Below are positions 48,983 through 55,397 of a DNA stretch of 64,000 bases, piece by piece. The position numbers and the translations under genes were made by a program. How positions within the stretch are numbered: position 1 is the first letter of the stretch; every line of letters starts with the position of its first letter. The stretch lies in assembly GCF_030013595.1 (NCBI RefSeq), contig NZ_CP122768.1. The stretch is one strand, 5' to 3'. The stretch is from Escherichia coli (GTDB taxonomy: Bacteria; Pseudomonadota; Gammaproteobacteria; Enterobacterales; Enterobacteriaceae). The notes beneath the pieces are model-generated. The model was not told the DNA's origin and searched no databases. It saw only the letters and a program-made list of their open reading frames with translations.

Positions 48983-50005
48983 ATGTCACTAACCAGACGG
49001 AGGTTTACACAGATTCTTGCGTCGACATTGTTCCTGCATCATCTGCCGTCCTTTGCACAATCAGTCAAATTCTGGGCCTCACTGACGCTTCCCGAAGCCC
49101 AAAACATTACACGCATCGTCAGCGCAGGCGCGCCCGCCGATTTACTATTGCTGGCTGTCGCGCCAGAAAAAATGGTCGGTTTTTCCTCTTTTGATTTTGC
49201 CCGTCAGGCATTAATTCCATTGCCAGAGCACATTCGCCAGTTCCCCAGGCTGGGACGACTCGCCGGGCGCGCCAGCACACTCTCGCTGGAAGGGCTTATG
49301 GCGTTACATCCCGATTTGGTCGTTGATTGCGGCAATACGGATGAAACCTGGATCTCCCAGGCACGGCAGGTTAGCGAACAGACACAAATACCCTGGTTAT
49401 TGCTTAACGGGAAACTGGAACAATCAGCAGAACAGTTAACAACGCTTGGCAAAACGTTAGGCGAAGAGCACCGCACCGCAGAACAAGCCAATCTCGCCAG
49501 CCGCTTCGTTGGTGAAGCTCAGGCATTCGCCACCTCACCCGCCGCTAACCTCAGCTTTTATGCTGCGCGCGGTCCTCGAGGGCTGGAAACGGGCTTACAG
49601 GGTTCGTTGCATACCGAGGCGGCGGAATTATTAGGTTTGCACAACGTCGCGCAAATAGCCGATCGCCACGGTCTGACACAGGTTTCCATGGAAAATCTCC
49701 TGCGCTGGCAGCCGGATATTATTCTGGTTCAGGAGGCCGTTACTGCAGATTTTATTCGTCGTGATCCTCTCTGGCAGGGCGTGAAAGCGGTTGCGGAACA
49801 ACGCATCTTATTTTTAAGTGGCCTGCCCTTTGGCTGGCTGGATGCCCCGCCGGGAATCAACCGTCTTCTGGGATTACGCAGACTTCACGCCTGGCTGGAT
49901 CCCGCCATCAATCGCCAGTTTAAAAGTGACATGCAGCATTACGCCCAACTGTTCTGGCATTGCCCATTAAGTGACGCCGACTATCAAAAATTGGTGGCGA
50001 GCTAA
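48983..50005 (+). CDS. ABC transporter periplasmic substrate-binding protein (FecB/BtuF-like, class III) with Tat-type signal
   Basis: 340 aa; N-terminus MSLTRRRFTQILASTLFLHHLPSFAQ has twin-arginine motif; SD agga upstream; first gene of operon; stop overlaps next start (TAATG). Confidence 0.85.
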   Translation: MSLTRRRFTQILASTLFLHHLPSFAQSVKFWASLTLPEAQNITRIVSAGAPADLLLLAVAPEKMVGFSSFDFARQALIPLPEHIRQFPRLGRLAGRASTLSLEGLMALHPDLVVDCGNTDETWISQARQVSEQTQIPWLLLNGKLEQSAEQLTTLGKTLGEEHRTAEQANLASRFVGEAQAFATSPAANLSFYAARGPRGLETGLQGSLHTEAAELLGLHNVAQIADRHGLTQVSMENLLRWQPDIILVQEAVTADFIRRDPLWQGVKAVAEQRILFLSGLPFGWLDAPPGINRLLGLRRLHAWLDPAINRQFKSDMQHYAQLFWHCPLSDADYQKLVAS

Positions 50006-50985
50006 TGAGAACCGTAAACGGATGTATTTTGCTGCTGGCAGCTATCAGTATCACTTTTGCCGCCGTAAGTGGGGCTTATCATCTCGATATACAGCAACTG
50101 CTGGCGCTCATTCTGCGTCAAGAAAATGTTCCTGTGCAGGAACAAATTGTCTTCTGGCAAATCCGCGTGCCGCGTATTCTTGCTGCGCTGTTTCTGGGCG
50201 CGGCGCTGGCAGGGGCCGGAACCACCTATCAGGGAATGTTCCGTAATCCCTTAGTGTCACCGGATATTTTAGGCGTCTCCGCCGGTGCCGGACTTGGTGC
50301 CTGCGCGGCAATCCTGTGGGGATTATCCATTGTTTACATCCAGCTGTACGCATTTTGCGGCGGGCTGATGGTGGTCGCGGGCGTCTGGTTGATTACGCGT
50401 CGGGTGACCCGCCACGATCCGATCTTAACCCTGGTGCTGGTAGGCATTGCGTTAGGAACGTTGTGCGGAGCGGGGATATCGCTAATAAAAACGCTGGCCG
50501 ATCCTTACACCCAGTTACCGTCAATTACCTTCTGGTTGCTGGGGGGGCTGTCCACCGTGACCTTACGCGATCTCTGCTATGCTGCACCGATCATTCTCAT
50601 AGGCTCCTTGCCCCTGTTTTTTCTCCGCTGGCGCATGAATTTACTCACGCTTTCCGACGACGAAGCCCGTTCGCTGGGACTGAACGTGACACGTCTGCGC
50701 TTTGGATTAATTGTCTGCGCCACACTAATCACCGCCAGCACGGTAGCAATAGCGGGCATAATTGGTTGGGTCGGCCTGGTCGTTCCGCACATTGCCCGCT
50801 TGTTGACCGGTCATAACCATCAGCAGCTGTTGCCCATGGCAATGTGTACTGGCGCGATTCTGCTCCTGCTTACCGATACGCTGGCACGCAGCATTGGAAC
50901 AACAGAAATCCCACTTGGCATTCTGACCGCTTTTGTTGGTGCACCGTTTTTCCTGTTTTTGTTGTTACGCGGAGGTCGCCAGTGA
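50005..50985 (+). CDS. ABC transporter permease, FecCD family
   Basis: 326 aa polytopic protein with FecCD-type conserved region. Confidence 0.88.
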   Translation: MRTVNGCILLLAAISITFAAVSGAYHLDIQQLLALILRQENVPVQEQIVFWQIRVPRILAALFLGAALAGAGTTYQGMFRNPLVSPDILGVSAGAGLGACAAILWGLSIVYIQLYAFCGGLMVVAGVWLITRRVTRHDPILTLVLVGIALGTLCGAGISLIKTLADPYTQLPSITFWLLGGLSTVTLRDLCYAAPIILIGSLPLFFLRWRMNLLTLSDDEARSLGLNVTRLRFGLIVCATLITASTVAIAGIIGWVGLVVPHIARLLTGHNHQQLLPMAMCTGAILLLLTDTLARSIGTTEIPLGILTAFVGAPFFLFLLLRGGRQ

Positions 50986-51740
50986 CTTTGCTTGCCGTCC
51001 GTCATGCGTCTCTGGGTTACTCCCGCCATCCGGTGCTACGCGACGTGTCCTTCACCCTGTCGCAAGGAACAATTTGTTGTCTGTTAGGAGCCAATGGTTG
51101 CGGCAAAACCACACTCATGCGCTCCATTCTTGGCGTTATACCGTTATTAAAAGGCGAGATCTTACTGGATAGCCTCCCTGTGCAGACACTCAGCCATCGC
51201 CAGCGCGCGCAGGCTATTGCCTGGGTGCCGCAGGCGCACGACGGCATTTTTGCTTTTAGTGTGCTGGATATGGTGTTGATGGGCCTGGCCCCCACCATAG
51301 GCGCTTTTTCCGTTCCCGGTAAGCAAGAACGCCTGAAAGCAACGGAGCAACTGGAAAAGCTGGGCATTTTGCATCTGGCGACACGACGCTGGAATACGCT
51401 TAGCGGCGGTGAACGTCAGCTGGCTTTAATCGCTCGTGCACTCGTCCAGCAACCGCGCTTGTTATTACTGGATGAGCCTGCCTCCAGCCTCGATTTCGGT
51501 CATCAGATCCAACTACTGGACACGCTGGCGCAGCTCAAAAATAACGGCATGACAATGTTAATGTCGACTCATCATCCGCTCCATGCCAACGCCATTGCCG
51601 ACAGCATTATCCAGGTAGAGCCAGATGGACGAGTAACACAAGGCTTACCGACCGAACAGTTAACAACGAACAAACTGGCTGCCCTGTACCGGGTTTCTGC
51701 CGACCAGATTCACCATCACCTCTCTGCAATTAAGCACTAA
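50982..51740 (+). CDS. ABC transporter ATP-binding protein
   Basis: GTG 50982 overlapping permease stop (GTGA); Walker A GANGCGKTT, signature LSGGERQ, Walker B LLLLDEP; 252 aa. Confidence 0.85.
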   Translation: MTLLAVRHASLGYSRHPVLRDVSFTLSQGTICCLLGANGCGKTTLMRSILGVIPLLKGEILLDSLPVQTLSHRQRAQAIAWVPQAHDGIFAFSVLDMVLMGLAPTIGAFSVPGKQERLKATEQLEKLGILHLATRRWNTLSGGERQLALIARALVQQPRLLLLDEPASSLDFGHQIQLLDTLAQLKNNGMTMLMSTHHPLHANAIADSIIQVEPDGRVTQGLPTEQLTTNKLAALYRVSADQIHHHLSAIKH

Positions 51741-53401: not shown

Positions 53402-53426
53402 TTCTTTGTTAAACGGAATTTATTCT

Positions 53427-55397
53427 ATGAGACTCAAAAAACGTTATCTCTGCACAGCATTATCACTTGCCTTTACCCAGCAGGCCGTAGCGGCTCAGGA
53501 GAGTGACACGCTGACCGTATGGTCCAGTCCGGTATCATCGACGACGACCACCGTTCTCGATCAACCCACCATGAAGGCCCTGGATAAACAGAATGTCGCT
53601 CAGGCATTAAGTGTCGTCCCCGGCGTGGTGCTGCAAAAGTCAGGCAGCCGCAACGAAGAACAGGTAAAAGTTCGTGGCTTTGATAGTCGGCAGGTGCCGG
53701 TCTATTTCGACGGTGTGCCCATTTATGTTCCCTATGACGGCAACCTCGATCTGGCGCGGATTCTGACCAACAATCTGGGGGCAGTCGAAGTTTCCAAAGG
53801 GTATTCGTCGCTGCTTCAGGGGCCTAATCAGATGGGCGGAGCCATTAATATCACCACCCAGAAGCCAACAAAACCTCTGGAAGCAAATCTGGGATATCGC
53901 CAGGGATGGAGCCGTAGCTAGGACAATGCCTACGATATGCATGCTTCATTTGCCGCCAGCAGCGATCTGGGGTATTTGCAAGTCAGCGGTAGCCAGCTAA
54001 AGCAGGATTTTCTCGGCCTGCCGCATGGTGTAAATAATGATATTGCAGGCAAACACGGTAAGATGATTAATTCATCGGCTGATGATAAACGCGGCATTGT
54101 GAAGCTCGGTTTTACACCACGCGAAAACGATGAATACACATTGACTTACATTAAGCAGGATGGTGAAAAAGATAACCCGCCATACAGTGGAAATAGTGGT
54201 CAAAAATCACGCTACTGGCAGTGGCCAGAGTATGACAAAGAAAGTTTTTATTATCAGGGAACGACCCAACTAAACGATCGTTTTACCCTGAAAAGTCGGC
54301 TGTATCGCGACACCTTTGAAAATACGCTGATGATGTACAACTCGCTGGCTGATTTAAAAAATAAAAAAGGCAGCTACAGCCATTATTCCGATTACAGCGA
54401 CGGTGCCGGGTTACAACTGGCAGCCGATGTGCGTGAAAACGATCTGCTGTCGTTTGCCGTTAACTGGAAAGATGACGTACACCGGGAAAAAGGTGCGCCG
54501 CACGCCGCTTACGATCGCTATGAAGATCGTACCTGGTCGCTCGCCAGTGAATATCAATGGGCTGCTGCCGATAATGTCGACGTCGTGGCTGGAATCAGCT
54601 ATGACTGGCGCGATAGCGTAGAAGCGAAAAAACATGAGAAAGATGGAAGCATCACCCATTATGACGACAACAATCAGTCAGCTTTTAACTGGCAGGTGAT
54701 GGGGAAATACCACTTTGCCAATGAAGACACGCTGGCGCTTTCGTACTATGACCGCACACGCTTTCCGACGCTGAAAGAACGCTATACCACGTCCAAACCT
54801 GCGTATAACCAGATAGCGATTGTTAACCCGCAGCTCAAACCGGAACGCGCGCGCGGGGTGGATTTAACCTGGAATGGTGCCTTCACGCACGACTGGGGGT
54901 TTGAGGTCAGCGTTTACTATAACCGGGTGAGTGATGCCATCCTCTCGCACAATATCGATGCCGATACCATTCAAAATCAGAACAGCGGCACGGTGGATTA
55001 CAGCGGTCTGGATGCCGGTATTAAGGGGAAAATCAGCAATATACTGGATGTAGGATTGAGCTACGCCCTGATCCACGCTGATGCCAAACGCAAAGACATC
55101 GGCAAGATAACCGATCTGCCAACGCAGACAATGACCGCATGGATGACTCTCAAACCGTGGGAGCCGTTAAACGTAACGCTGTCGGAAGAGGCGCGTTCCT
55201 CCAGCTACAGCAACAGTGACGGTTCACAAAAAGCCGCCGGTTTTGCGGTGACCCACATTCGAGCCGATTACACCTTAGGTCATGGCTTCAGCGTCAATGC
55301 GTCGGTCAATAACCTGTTTGATACCAAATATGCCTACAGTGAAGGGTTTATTGAAGAAGGTCGCAATTTCTGGGCAGGTATCGAGTATACGTTCTGA
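53427..55397 (+). pseudogene. TonB-dependent outer-membrane receptor interrupted by in-frame TAG at 53919-53921
   Basis: Signal peptide MRLKKRYLCTALSLAFTQQAVAAQE, TonB box DTLTVW, plug then beta-barrel ending in aromatic (GIEYTF); two ORF-track pieces 53406-53921 and 53937-55397 are in the same frame, separated only by one amber codon. Confidence 0.8.

What the first reader, a model, noticed from the sequence alone, without database searches (positions are those of the whole stretch)
48983..55397. Six-gene uptake operon between treA and ymgE that is not part of the K-12 gene order
Between treA and ymgE lie six co-directional, tightly coupled genes (several with overlapping stop/start): substrate-binding protein, FecCD permease, ABC ATPase, SAM methyltransferase, ModD/QPRTase-like protein and a TonB-dependent receptor. 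From memory the K-12 interval here holds only the small gene ycgY, so this looks like a replacement or insertion. The substrate is not obvious from sequence. The combination of a TonB-dependent receptor and class III binding protein with two putative small-molecule-modifying enzymes is unusual for a plain siderophore or B12 importer. I could not find a convincing Fur box in the AT-rich promoter region (48720-48980), only a TTGACA -35-like hexamer at 48912-48917.
Basis: partly seen in the sequence, partly recalled or inferred. Interest (0 to 1): 0.7.

Follow-up and report, generated by a model that had tools for sequence, protein, structure and literature searches.

The report
Molybdate-regulated TonB-dependent uptake operon
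The six genes between treA and ymgE, annotated as an "iron" importer, carry a perfect and widely conserved binding site for the molybdate sensor ModE, so they most likely form a molybdenum (or tungsten) scavenging system with an outer-membrane receptor, a route not described for this metal in the papers I could search.

Summary
Six tightly coupled + strand genes (binding protein, FecCD permease, ATPase, SAM methyltransferase, ModD, TonB-dependent receptor) fill the treA–ymgE interval. K-12 has only ycgY there. The cluster is present in 2139 of 5426 complete E. coli genomes.

It is not an insertion. The same operon sits at the same place in E. albertii, Citrobacter, Raoultella and Enterobacter, and K-12 keeps the last 24 nt of the receptor gene, so K-12 lost it.

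The key finding is a ModE operator, CGATATATA-N6-TATATAGCG (48935-48958), between a TTGACA −35 and the start codon. It is the only such site in 64 kb and a better consensus match than the K-12 modA operator. It is conserved upstream of the orthologous operon in about 15 genera.

There is no Fur box and no riboswitch. The permease is closest to Haemophilus MolB. The nearest solved relative of the binding protein (4PAG) is encoded next to modE, exbBD-tonB and a TonB-dependent receptor in Sulfurospirillum.

Best reading: a ModE-repressed, TonB-dependent Mo/W acquisition system, wrongly named "iron". The imported species and the chemistry of the methyltransferase and ModD remain unknown.

In this strain the receptor carries an amber codon (53919-53921).

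The parts
48912..48917 (+). -35-like hexamer TTGACA of the operon promoter
   Evidence: Read directly from the sequence. It is conserved as TTGA(C/T) in the promoter alignment of 14 taxa.
48935..48958 (.). ModE operator, CGATATATA-TGTAAA-TATATAGCG (extended site 48933-48960)
   Evidence: It matches 16 of 16 core positions, and 20 of 22 positions of the full consensus ATCGNTATATA-N6-TATATANCGAT quoted in PMC545781. It is the only match in the 64-kb window even at up to 2 mismatches, and 0 of 100 shuffles gave any match. The K-12 modA operator matches the same pattern with 2 mismatches. The site is conserved upstream of the orthologous operon in about 15 genera. The 12 sampled E. coli carriers hold one of two alleles, scoring 16/16 or 15/16.
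48983..50005 (+). Periplasmic class III (Peripla_BP_2) substrate-binding protein with a twin-arginine signal peptide (LTRRRFTQ)
   Evidence: ORF. It falls far below every iron, heme or B12 equivalog cut-off. The AF2 model has pLDDT 86.8; its best PDB match is 4PAG (TM 0.78-0.82) and MolA 3PSA ranks 5th (TM 0.66-0.69). The RR motif is conserved in 16 of 17 orthologues.
50005..50985 (+). FecCD-family type II ABC importer permease, MolB-like
   Evidence: The best solved relative is H. influenzae HI1471 (MolB, 2NQ2), E = 5.9e-65, aligned end to end. It scores ahead of FhuB, HmuU and BtuC.
50982..51740 (+). ABC ATPase (GTG start overlapping the permease stop codon)
   Evidence: RefSeq start mapped; junction. 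HI1470 (MolC) is the best importer-type PDB match, E = 1.2e-35.
51750..52550 (+). Class I SAM-dependent methyltransferase. This allele lacks 4 conserved residues (AEKM, junction about 51848/51849).
   Evidence: Pfam Methyltransf_31/25/12/11. The family alignment shows the in-frame deletion relative to all other orthologues. The AF2 model has pLDDT 86.8 and only generic small-molecule methyltransferase neighbours, TM 0.55 or lower.
52547..53401 (+). ModD (quinolinate-phosphoribosyltransferase-like protein of the molybdenum transport neighbourhood)
   Evidence: TIGR01334 ModD scores 501.4 bits against a cut-off of 178.85. The nadC model scores 135.7, below its cut-off of 198.4. Alignment to M. 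tuberculosis QPRTase keeps the TRK, HR, E and D catalytic positions but has Phe at the position of Lys172.
53427..55397 (+). TonB-dependent outer-membrane receptor, a pseudogene in this strain (Gln165 to amber, TAG at 53919-53921)
   Evidence: There are plug and barrel family hits on both fragments. The frame has a single in-frame stop, a TonB-box-like DTLTVW after the signal peptide, and a C-terminal Phe. JJ1887, O145 and HCP5S3 have CAG at the same codon. The intact 656-aa form is present in 11 of 12 sampled genomes.
55405..55434 (.). Inverted repeat GCGGATAGCG-N10-CGCTATCCGC between the convergent receptor and ymgE genes (probable bidirectional terminator)
   Evidence: Sequence. It lies in the segment that K-12 retains, where homology runs from 55374.

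Best explanation
The operon is a member of the ModE (molybdate-sensor) regulon. It encodes a TonB-dependent acquisition pathway for molybdenum, and possibly tungsten.

Proposed sequence of events:
1. When cytoplasmic molybdate is sufficient, ModE-molybdate binds the palindrome that sits between the -35 hexamer and the start codon and represses the operon, as it does at modA.
2. Under Mo starvation the operon is expressed.
3. The outer-membrane receptor uses TonB energy to bring the Mo species into the periplasm.
4. A Tat-exported class III binding protein delivers it to a MolBC-like type II ABC importer.
5. The co-transcribed SAM methyltransferase and ModD act in the cytoplasm on a step of molybdenum handling that is still undefined. 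ModD is a phosphoribosyltransferase homologue with one substrate-site lysine replaced.

What is shown and what is inferred:
- Shown: the operator and its conservation, the gene order, the homologies, and the association of ModD and of this binding-protein/permease subfamily with Mo genes.
- Inferred: ModE binding, repression, the metal transported, and the order of events.

In this particular strain the pathway is probably non-functional at the outer membrane, because the receptor has an amber codon.
For: 1. Operator.
- A perfect ModE core site lies at 48935-48958. It is unique in the window and absent from shuffles.
- It is better than the authentic modA operator.
- The consensus is taken from PMC545781.

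2. Phylogenetic footprint.
- The same six-gene order occurs in Escherichia, Citrobacter, Raoultella, Klebsiella indica, Enterobacter, Yokenella, Symbiopectobacterium, Serratia, Proteus, Morganella, Providencia, Pantoea, Erwinia, Pectobacterium and Affinibrenneria.
- A 13-16/16 box lies 40-60 nt upstream of the first gene in nearly all of them.
- A second box lies in front of the receptor gene in Proteus, Morganella, Providencia, Pectobacterium and Serratia.
- The box and the -35 are the only conserved blocks of the promoter alignment.
- In 1.49 Mb of loci there are 60 sites scoring 15/16 or better, against 0 in 20 shuffles. Of these, 54 lie in the modD cluster zone.

3. ModD is always linked to Mo.
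- Elsewhere it sits next to ModA-like/TIGR01581 transporters (Yersinia alsatica, Pasteurella oralis, Cedecea).
- It also sits next to a WtpA-like transporter, or stands alone with its own box.
- It is part of G. sulfurreducens modDABC, which has a ModE site.
- It is part of the H. influenzae molABC-modD cluster.
- It is part of the Z. mobilis nif cluster, together with modE and two TonB-dependent transporters.

4. The permease and ATPase are closest to MolBC.

5. Independent support from other phyla.
- The nearest solved relative of the binding protein, 4PAG, is encoded directly after a full-length modE. Its neighbours are exbB-exbD-tonB, a permease 42% identical to the E. coli one, an ATPase and a TonB-dependent receptor, next to formate dehydrogenase and fdhD.
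- A Sulfurimonas homologue lies contiguous with modE-modABC and nitrogenase.
- A Desulforegula homologue lies with XdhC, FmdE and a methyltransferase.
- ModE-type boxes are enriched in the two Campylobacterota loci: 3 and 6 observed, and 0 of 100 shuffles reach these numbers.

6. There is no Fur or Zur box above chance, and no riboswitch.
Against: - Nothing here is experimental. ModE binding, molybdate-dependent expression and transport were not tested.
- The binding protein is not a clear orthologue of MolA: 20% identity, and it ranks behind three other structures.
- The receptor has no informative relative.
- Molybdate is small enough to cross porins, so the need for a TonB-dependent receptor is not self-evident, and the true ligand could be something else.
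- The roles of the methyltransferase and ModD are unexplained.
- Three of 12 sampled E. coli carriers, plus this window, have an inactivating mutation in one gene of the operon. Selection on the operon is therefore not strong in all lineages.
- Public annotation calls the transporter 'iron'. That name rests only on family-level similarity.
Confidence: 0.75

Rival explanations
1. The system imports a molybdenum (or tungsten) complex rather than the free oxyanion. Candidates are a catecholate or N,O-heteroaromatic carboxylate 'molybdophore', or a thiomolybdate formed in sulfidic gut contents. The methyltransferase and the phosphoribosyltransferase-like ModD would then free the metal by modifying the donor atoms of the ligand. 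This is a variant of the main explanation that differs in the transported species.
For: - TonB-dependent receptors with class III binding proteins and type II importers usually carry bulky chelates. The structural neighbours of the binding protein are siderophore, heme and B12 binders.
- Two small-molecule enzymes are co-transcribed with the transporter.
- ModD keeps the catalytic residues of an enzyme that acts on a pyridine dicarboxylate.
- A Desulforegula cluster of the same transporter subfamily also carries a methyltransferase.
- Papers discuss 8-hydroxyquinoline-2-carboxylate as a possible molybdophore, and tetrathiomolybdate as an alternative Mo source (titles and abstracts listed).
Against: - ModD also accompanies ModA-type and WtpA-type transporters, which carry only oxyanions, and it occurs alone under a ModE box.
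- Edwardsiella keeps the methyltransferase-ModD pair under a ModE box without the receptor or the importer.
- MolA, a binding protein of the same class, binds the bare oxyanion. This rests on the title of the 3PSA entry and on PMC4031551.
- The Desulforegula methyltransferase is not an orthologue; only the SAM motif aligns.
Confidence: 0.2
2. It is an iron-chelate (siderophore or heme) uptake system, as the public annotation says, and the palindrome is fortuitous or secondary.
For: - Sources name the proteins 'iron ABC transporter substrate-binding protein' and 'iron complex outermembrane receptor protein'.
- There are weak family-level hits to FecB, FepB, IsdE and siderophore-receptor models.
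- YiuA, an iron-binding protein, is among the structural neighbours.
Against: - All iron-specific equivalog models score far below their cut-offs, for example FecB 31.9 bits against 320.
- No Fur box exceeds shuffle level in E. coli or in 12 other genera.
- The ModE box is conserved across about 15 genera, which chance does not explain.
- ModD and the relatives of the transporter are embedded in Mo gene neighbourhoods.
Confidence: 0.05
3. It is a corrinoid or other cofactor (B12-like) importer of the BtuB-BtuFCD type.
For: - The best NCBIfam hit of the permease is a BtuC model (242.6 bits).
- The receptor fragments hit BtuB models weakly.
- The best NCBIfam hit of the methyltransferase is a corrinoid-protein-associated methyltransferase, E = 2.4e-11.
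Against: - All of these hits are below their cut-offs: BtuC 242.6 against 461, BtuB 43.5 against 836, CpaM 43.5 against 180.
- There is no cobalamin riboswitch or any other Rfam match at E up to 1.
- MolB outscores BtuC in the PDB search, 222.8 against 146 bits.
- The regulation is of the ModE type.
Confidence: 0.03

Closest known systems
Haemophilus influenzae MolBC-A (HI1470/HI1471/HI1472) with adjacent ModD (HI1473)
   Same: - It is a type II (FecCD) ABC importer for molybdate/tungstate with a class III binding protein.
- Its permease is the best solved relative of the E. coli permease (5.9e-65, full length), and its ATPase is also close.
- modD is in the same cluster.
- molB is repressed by molybdate (PMC4031551).
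   Different: - The paper listing HI1469-HI1475 names no outer-membrane receptor and no methyltransferase in that cluster.
- The binding proteins are only about 20% identical, and MolA is not the closest structure.
- The regulator of the Haemophilus operon is stated to be unknown. Here a ModE operator is evident.
E. coli ModABC and the ModE regulon
   Same: It has the same type of operator in the same position relative to the first gene. The modA operator lies 20 nt upstream of its ATG; this one lies 25 nt upstream. The presumed logic is the same: repression when molybdate is sufficient.
   Different: - ModABC is a type I importer with a class II binding protein.
- ModABC has no dedicated outer-membrane component.
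- The present operon is absent from K-12, the strain in which the regulon was defined.
Sulfurospirillum deleyianum cluster that encodes the 4PAG binding protein (structural-genomics entry, function not assigned)
   Same: - 4PAG is the closest solved relative of the binding protein: 26% identity, TM about 0.8.
- The permease is 42% identical to the E. coli one.
- The cluster includes a TonB-dependent receptor and lies next to modE, with ModE-type boxes in its intergenic regions.
   Different: - It carries its own exbB-exbD-tonB and a radical-SAM fusion protein.
- It has no ModD and no methyltransferase.
- Its receptor is unrelated to the E. coli receptor beyond the fold.
TonB-dependent uptake of non-iron metals (ZnuD for zinc, FrpB4 for nickel, OprC/NosA for copper) and BtuB-BtuFCD for cobalamin. 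The comparison with the metal examples is from my own knowledge, not tested here.
   Same: The principle is the same: an energised outer-membrane receptor, controlled by the cognate metal sensor rather than by Fur, feeds a periplasmic binding protein and an ABC importer.
   Different: - The metal sensor here is ModE.
- Six phrase variants for a TonB-dependent molybdate, molybdenum or tungstate transporter gave no occurrence in the searchable library.
- The receptor fragments score below the cut-offs of the B12 and copper receptor models.
Yersinia YiuABC-YiuR iron system
   Same: It has a class III binding protein of similar fold (TM 0.63-0.66), a FecCD importer and a TonB-dependent receptor.
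   Different: - YiuA binds iron and iron-catecholate; the 9HRP and 9IF3 entries contain iron.
- From my own knowledge, Yiu is Fur-regulated. Here there is no Fur box.
- Sequence identity is only 15-17%.

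Membership tests
ModE regulon (E. coli-type operator) | Palindromic operator matching ATCGNTATATA-N6-TATATANCGAT | tested here: met
   The site at 48933-48960 matches 20 of 22 positions, and its core matches 16 of 16. It is unique in the window, and 0 of 100 shuffles gave a match. The consensus is from PMC545781.
ModE regulon (E. coli-type operator) | Operator placed over the promoter or start region, as at modA (repressor position) | tested here: met
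   The site lies between the TTGACA hexamer (48912-48917) and the ATG (48983). The modA site is 20 nt upstream of its ATG. The transcription start was not determined.
ModE regulon (E. coli-type operator) | Site conserved in orthologous promoters of other genera | tested here: met
   The box is the only conserved block besides the -35, across 14 taxa from 12 genera.
ModE regulon (E. coli-type operator) | ModE binding and molybdate-dependent transcription | not testable with these tools
   This needs a gel shift or footprint, and expression assays with and without molybdate and with and without modE.
MolBC-A type II molybdate/tungstate importer | Permease and ATPase orthologous to MolB and MolC | tested here: met
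   HI1471 is the top PDB hit, 5.9e-65, end to end. HI1470 is the best importer-type hit, 1.2e-35.
MolBC-A type II molybdate/tungstate importer | Binding protein orthologous to MolA | tested here: inconclusive
   The sequence hit to 3PSA is partial, 1.9e-7. The fold match has TM 0.66-0.69 and 20% identity, and ranks 5th behind 4PAG, 2ETV and 4OVK.
MolBC-A type II molybdate/tungstate importer | Binding and transport of molybdate or tungstate | not testable with these tools
   This needs ITC or crystallography of the binding protein, and uptake assays.
ModD family (TIGR01334) | Score above the curated cut-off of the ModD model | tested here: met
   501.4 bits against a cut-off of 178.85, over the full length.
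Quinolinate phosphoribosyltransferase NadC | Score above the nadC cut-off and a complete quinolinate-binding site | tested here: not met
   135.7 bits against a cut-off of 198.4. The position of Lys172 is an invariant Phe, and Arg105 is Lys. The residue roles are recalled from the M. tuberculosis structure papers.
TonB-dependent transporter | Plug and 22-strand barrel domains, TonB box, C-terminal aromatic residue | tested here: met
   TIGR01783/01786 hits fall on both fragments. DTLTVW follows the signal peptide and the protein ends in Phe.
TonB-dependent transporter | Intact reading frame in this window | tested here: not met
   There is an amber codon at 53919-53921, where JJ1887, O145 and HCP5S3 have CAG.
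Fur-regulated siderophore or heme uptake system | Fur box in the promoter, and a binding protein or receptor reaching an iron-specific equivalog model | tested here: not met
   The best Fur match is 12 of 19, which is shuffle level, and no Fur site is conserved in 12 other genera. All iron equivalog scores are far below their cut-offs.
Cobalamin BtuB-BtuFCD system | Cobalamin riboswitch, and BtuB/BtuC/BtuF equivalog scores | tested here: not met
   There is no Rfam match at E up to 1 in 48000-56500. BtuC and BtuB scores are below their cut-offs.

The most novel reading that the evidence does not exclude
This is the enterobacterial representative of a widespread but undescribed class of ModE-controlled, TonB-dependent molybdenum/tungsten acquisition systems, also found in Campylobacterota and Desulfobacterota. 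It takes up a Mo species other than free molybdate (a chelate or a thiomolybdate). The methyltransferase-ModD pair carries out a new cytoplasmic reaction of molybdenum handling. Such a system could give the E. coli lineages that carry it an advantage in Mo-dependent anaerobic respiration in the gut.
Probability: 0.25. Interest if true: 0.85.

Novelty: new variant of a known kind. Interest (0 to 1): 0.68.

Why it matters
Molybdoenzymes (nitrate, DMSO and TMAO reductases, formate dehydrogenases) power the anaerobic respiration that lets Enterobacteriaceae bloom in the inflamed gut. This point is from my own knowledge.

Textbook Mo uptake in E. coli is ModABC, with no dedicated outer-membrane step, and it was defined in K-12, which lacks this operon.

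About 39% of complete E. coli genomes carry the operon, including ST131-type and O145 strains, as do many other Enterobacterales. If it is a ModE-repressed, TonB-dependent Mo scavenger, four things follow:
- A large set of proteins annotated as 'iron' transporters is misnamed.
- Molybdenum joins the metals that have energised outer-membrane uptake.
- ModD, whose function has been unknown since the 1990s, gets a defined regulatory and genetic setting in a tractable organism.
- The hypothesis can be tested directly with simple genetics, by varying molybdate, modE and tonB.

Tried and rejected
- **Rfam.** A scan of 48000-56500 at E up to 1 found nothing.
- **Fur and Zur.** Consensus scans gave chance-level matches only. 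The best Zur 'hit' is simply the ModE palindrome.
- **Promoter and terminator scan.** It did not call the TTGACA promoter and gave counts at shuffle level.
- **Methyltransferase.** Pfam, PDB sequence search and a fold search of a good AF2 model gave only generic class I neighbours, so there is no clue to the substrate.
- **Receptor.** No solved relative exists beyond the plug domain.
- **Papers.**
  - The key papers on MolA (PMC3258573) and on ModE sites (PMC317290) are not held.
  - Searches for ModD with TonB, for ycgY with treA, and for the Z1961-Z1966 locus tags gave nothing specific. Z1966 is merely listed as down-regulated, and I could not confirm that it maps to this operon.
  - The Klebsiella Cr(VI) paper and the Proteus selenium paper do not mention the cluster.
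- **Shewanella methyltransferase orthologue.** It sits beside a transposase with no ModD and no box, so it is uninformative.
- **Insertion or horizontal transfer.** I considered this and rejected it, because of the conserved synteny, the ordinary G+C content and the receptor remnant in K-12.

Full report
**1. The observation**

The window holds six co-directional ORFs between treA (46952-48652) and ymgE (55447-55701, minus strand):
- a Peripla_BP_2 binding protein (48983-50005);
- a FecCD permease (50005-50985);
- an ABC ATPase (50982-51740, GTG start);
- a class I SAM methyltransferase (51750-52550);
- ModD (52547-53401);
- a TonB-dependent receptor (53427-55397).

The junctions are TAATG, GTGA, a 9-nt gap with AGGA, ATGA and a 25-nt gap.

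The receptor is a single frame interrupted by one TAG at codon 165 (53919-53921). JJ1887, O145 and even the closest genome have CAG at that codon.

K-12 (JM109) has treA - ycgY - ymgE. The operon is covered at 80% or more in 2139 of 5426 complete E. coli genomes.

**2. Origin**

The cluster is not an island.
- Its G+C content is 0.51-0.56, like its surroundings.
- The same operon lies between treA and ymgE/ycgR/emtA in E. albertii, where ycgY is also present, and in eight Citrobacter species. It lies between treA and emtA in Raoultella and Enterobacter.
- K-12 homology to the window stops at the treA stop codon and resumes at 55374. That is 24 nt before the receptor stop codon, and the segment includes the hairpin at 55405-55434.

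The simplest history is an ancestor with treA - ycgY - operon - ymgE. The K-12 lineage deleted the operon and this lineage lost ycgY.

**3. Regulation, the decisive point**

The ModE operator:
- Twenty-five nucleotides upstream of the first ATG, just after the TTGACA hexamer, lies CGATATATA-TGTAAA-TATATAGCG (48935-48958).
- The E. coli ModE consensus is ATCGNTATATA-N6-TATATANCGAT (quoted in PMC545781). The site matches all 16 core positions, and 20 of 22 positions overall.
- It is the only match in 64 kb even at two mismatches, and no shuffle produced one.
- The authentic K-12 modA operator, CGTTATATTGTCGCCTACATAACG, sits 20 nt upstream of modA and matches with two mismatches.
- Twelve E. coli carriers hold one of two alleles, scoring 16/16 or 15/16.

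Negative results for other regulators:
- The best Fur match is 12 of 19, which is what shuffled sequence gives, and nothing Fur-like is conserved in other genera.
- There is no Rfam match.

**4. Comparative genomics**

A ModD-seeded scan of one genome per species returned 80 loci.

Conservation of the operon and its operator:
- The identical order (binding protein, permease, ATPase, methyltransferase, ModD, receptor) occurs in Escherichia, Citrobacter, Raoultella, Klebsiella indica, Enterobacter, Yokenella, Symbiopectobacterium, Serratia, Proteus, Morganella, Providencia, Pantoea, Erwinia, Pectobacterium and Affinibrenneria.
- A ModE box scoring 13-16 of 16 lies 40-60 nt upstream of the first gene in almost all of them.
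- A second box lies in the modD-receptor spacer in Proteus, Morganella, Providencia, Pectobacterium and one Serratia.
- Across the 1.49 Mb of loci there are 60 sites scoring 15/16 or better, against none in 20 block shuffles. Of these, 54 lie within the ModD cluster zone.
- In an alignment of 14 promoters from 12 genera, the box and a TTGA(C/T) -35 are the only conserved blocks.

ModD in other contexts:
- It sits next to a ModA-like binding protein, a TIGR01581 'Mo_ABC_porter' permease and an ATPase, again behind a ModE box, in Yersinia alsatica, Pasteurella oralis and Cedecea.
- It sits next to a WtpA-like transporter in the Sodalis-like loci, and alone behind its own box in Photobacterium.
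- Edwardsiella keeps only the methyltransferase-ModD pair behind a box.

Published contexts agree:
- modDABC with a ModE site in Geobacter sulfurreducens;
- molABC-modD in H. influenzae;
- modD, modE and two TonB-dependent transporters in the Zymomonas mobilis nif cluster.

**5. The proteins**

- **ModD.** It scores 501 bits on TIGR01334 and falls below the nadC cut-off. Aligned to M. tuberculosis QPRTase, it keeps the TRK, HR, Glu and Asp positions. It has an invariant Phe where the enzyme has Lys172, and Lys where the enzyme has Arg105. The residue roles are from my memory of the structure papers.
- **Permease and ATPase.** The best solved relative of the permease is MolB (HI1471), 5.9e-65 end to end, ahead of FhuB, HmuU and BtuC. 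The ATPase is close to MolC.
- **Binding protein.** It has a conserved twin-arginine motif. It gives a confident AF2 model (pLDDT 86.8). The best match of that model is 4PAG (TM about 0.8); MolA ranks fifth, among iron, heme and B12 binders. It is therefore not demonstrably a MolA orthologue.
- **Methyltransferase.** It is a generic class I small-molecule enzyme by every test.
- **Receptor.** It has no informative solved relative.
- **Names.** Public sources give only generic 'iron' or 'TonB-dependent receptor' names.

**6. Independent support from distant phyla**

- I rebuilt the 4PAG sequence from the alignment and found its gene in Sulfurospirillum deleyianum.
- That gene lies directly downstream of a full-length modE. 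The neighbours are exbB-exbD-tonB, a permease 42% identical to the E. coli one, an ATPase and a TonB-dependent receptor. The cluster sits beside a formate dehydrogenase and fdhD.
- A Sulfurimonas homologue is contiguous with a TOBE regulator, modA, modB, an ATPase, exbBD-tonB and two receptors, next to nitrogenase.
- A Desulforegula homologue lies with a receptor, a (non-orthologous) methyltransferase, XdhC and FmdE.
- The two Campylobacterota loci contain 3 and 6 ModE-type boxes in the intergenic regions before exbB, tonB, the binding-protein genes and modA. The shuffle mean is 0.2, and no shuffle out of 100 reaches the observed numbers.
- The binding-protein and permease subfamily is thus repeatedly tied both to TonB-dependent receptors and to Mo/W genes.

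**7. Interpretation**

The best-supported reading is a ModE-repressed, TonB-dependent molybdenum (or tungsten) acquisition operon that family-level annotation has misnamed as an iron system.
- Shown: the operator, its conservation, the gene order and the neighbourhood associations.
- Inferred: ModE binding, the direction of regulation, the metal and the route.
- Not resolved: the transported species. ModD accompanies oxyanion-only transporters, and the methyltransferase-ModD pair can exist without the receptor. Both facts argue that the two enzymes act on cytoplasmic Mo handling rather than on a receptor-specific ligand. The use of a TonB-dependent receptor and a class III binding protein keeps the chelate or thiomolybdate variant alive.

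**8. State of the locus**

In this strain:
- The receptor has an amber codon.
- The methyltransferase lacks four conserved residues (AEKM).

Among 12 evenly sampled E. coli carriers, nine are intact. Three have a lesion, each in a different gene:
- a receptor frameshift in the closest genome, at the G-run 53777-53781;
- a permease frameshift in JJ1887;
- an internal stop in the methyltransferase in a cattle strain.

The operon is therefore usually maintained but is sporadically decaying.

**9. Novelty**

- Six phrase variants for a TonB-dependent molybdate, molybdenum or tungstate transporter do not occur in the 8 million searchable papers.
- Searches that combined ModE, molybdate and TonB-dependent found nothing on this system.
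- The library is incomplete and regulon databases could not be consulted, so prior prediction cannot be excluded.
- I class the finding as a new variant of known kinds: the ModE regulon, MolBC-type importers and metal-specific TonB-dependent uptake.

Noticed in passing
window 53777-53781 and 53919-53921; L001 (E. coli HCP5S3_I2): The closest genome (99.9% identical) also has a dead receptor gene, but through a different lesion. It has an extra G in the GGGGG run and keeps CAG where the window has TAG. These are two independent knock-outs in very close relatives.
   Followed up: yes
window about 51848/51849 (methyltransferase codons 34-37): There is an in-frame 12-nt deletion that removes AEKM from a conserved N-terminal helix. 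It is shared with HCP5S3_I2 and absent from the other 10 sampled E. coli genomes and from all other genera. It may impair the enzyme.
   Followed up: partly
L046 and L047 (Affinibrenneria salicis NZ_VYKJ01000001.1, 143401-164240 and 910889-931728): The whole operon and its flanks are present twice on one scaffold, 100% identical over 20,840 bases. This is either a very recent large duplication or an assembly artefact.
   Followed up: partly
L006 (contig JAIJJM010000374.1, labelled Collinsella sp. MAG): This 3.2-kb contig, assigned to an actinobacterial MAG, is 97-100% identical at protein level to the E. coli ATPase, methyltransferase, ModD and receptor. It is almost certainly a binning contaminant.
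   Followed up: no
L017 (Citrobacter koseri NCTC10786) and L008 (E. albertii NBRC 107761): C. koseri has fragmented binding-protein, permease and ATPase genes. The E. albertii receptor ORF stops after 421 residues. The operon is thus decaying in some species as well.
   Followed up: no
L098 (Sulfurimonas sp.) 869, 1722, 5273, 6198, 6249, 12043; L095 (S. deleyianum) 3200, 6820, 6889, 7948: E. coli-type ModE palindromes lie in front of exbB, tonB, modA, the regulator gene and the binding-protein genes in Campylobacterota. This suggests that a dedicated TonB system is itself under molybdate control there.
   Followed up: partly
L099 (Desulforegula conservatrix): The homologous transporter cluster carries two DUF364/DUF4213 proteins, an FmdE-domain protein, XdhC and a small methyltransferase. 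This is an unexplored gene set linked to Mo cofactor handling.
   Followed up: no
L026, L043, L045, L052 (Edwardsiella): The methyltransferase-ModD pair stands alone behind a ModE box, without the importer or the receptor. In E. hoshinae (L026), the only one of the four whose neighbours I annotated, a MoeB/ThiF-like gene lies about 0.8 kb downstream.
   Followed up: partly
cluster 3: The 90%-identity cluster that holds the methyltransferase has a ModD protein as its representative and mixes the two families. This looks like a clustering artefact in the protein collection, perhaps caused by fused gene calls across the ATGA overlap.
   Followed up: no
window 55405-55434: A perfect 10-bp inverted repeat lies between the convergent receptor and ymgE genes. 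It is retained in K-12 although the operon is deleted there.
   Followed up: partly
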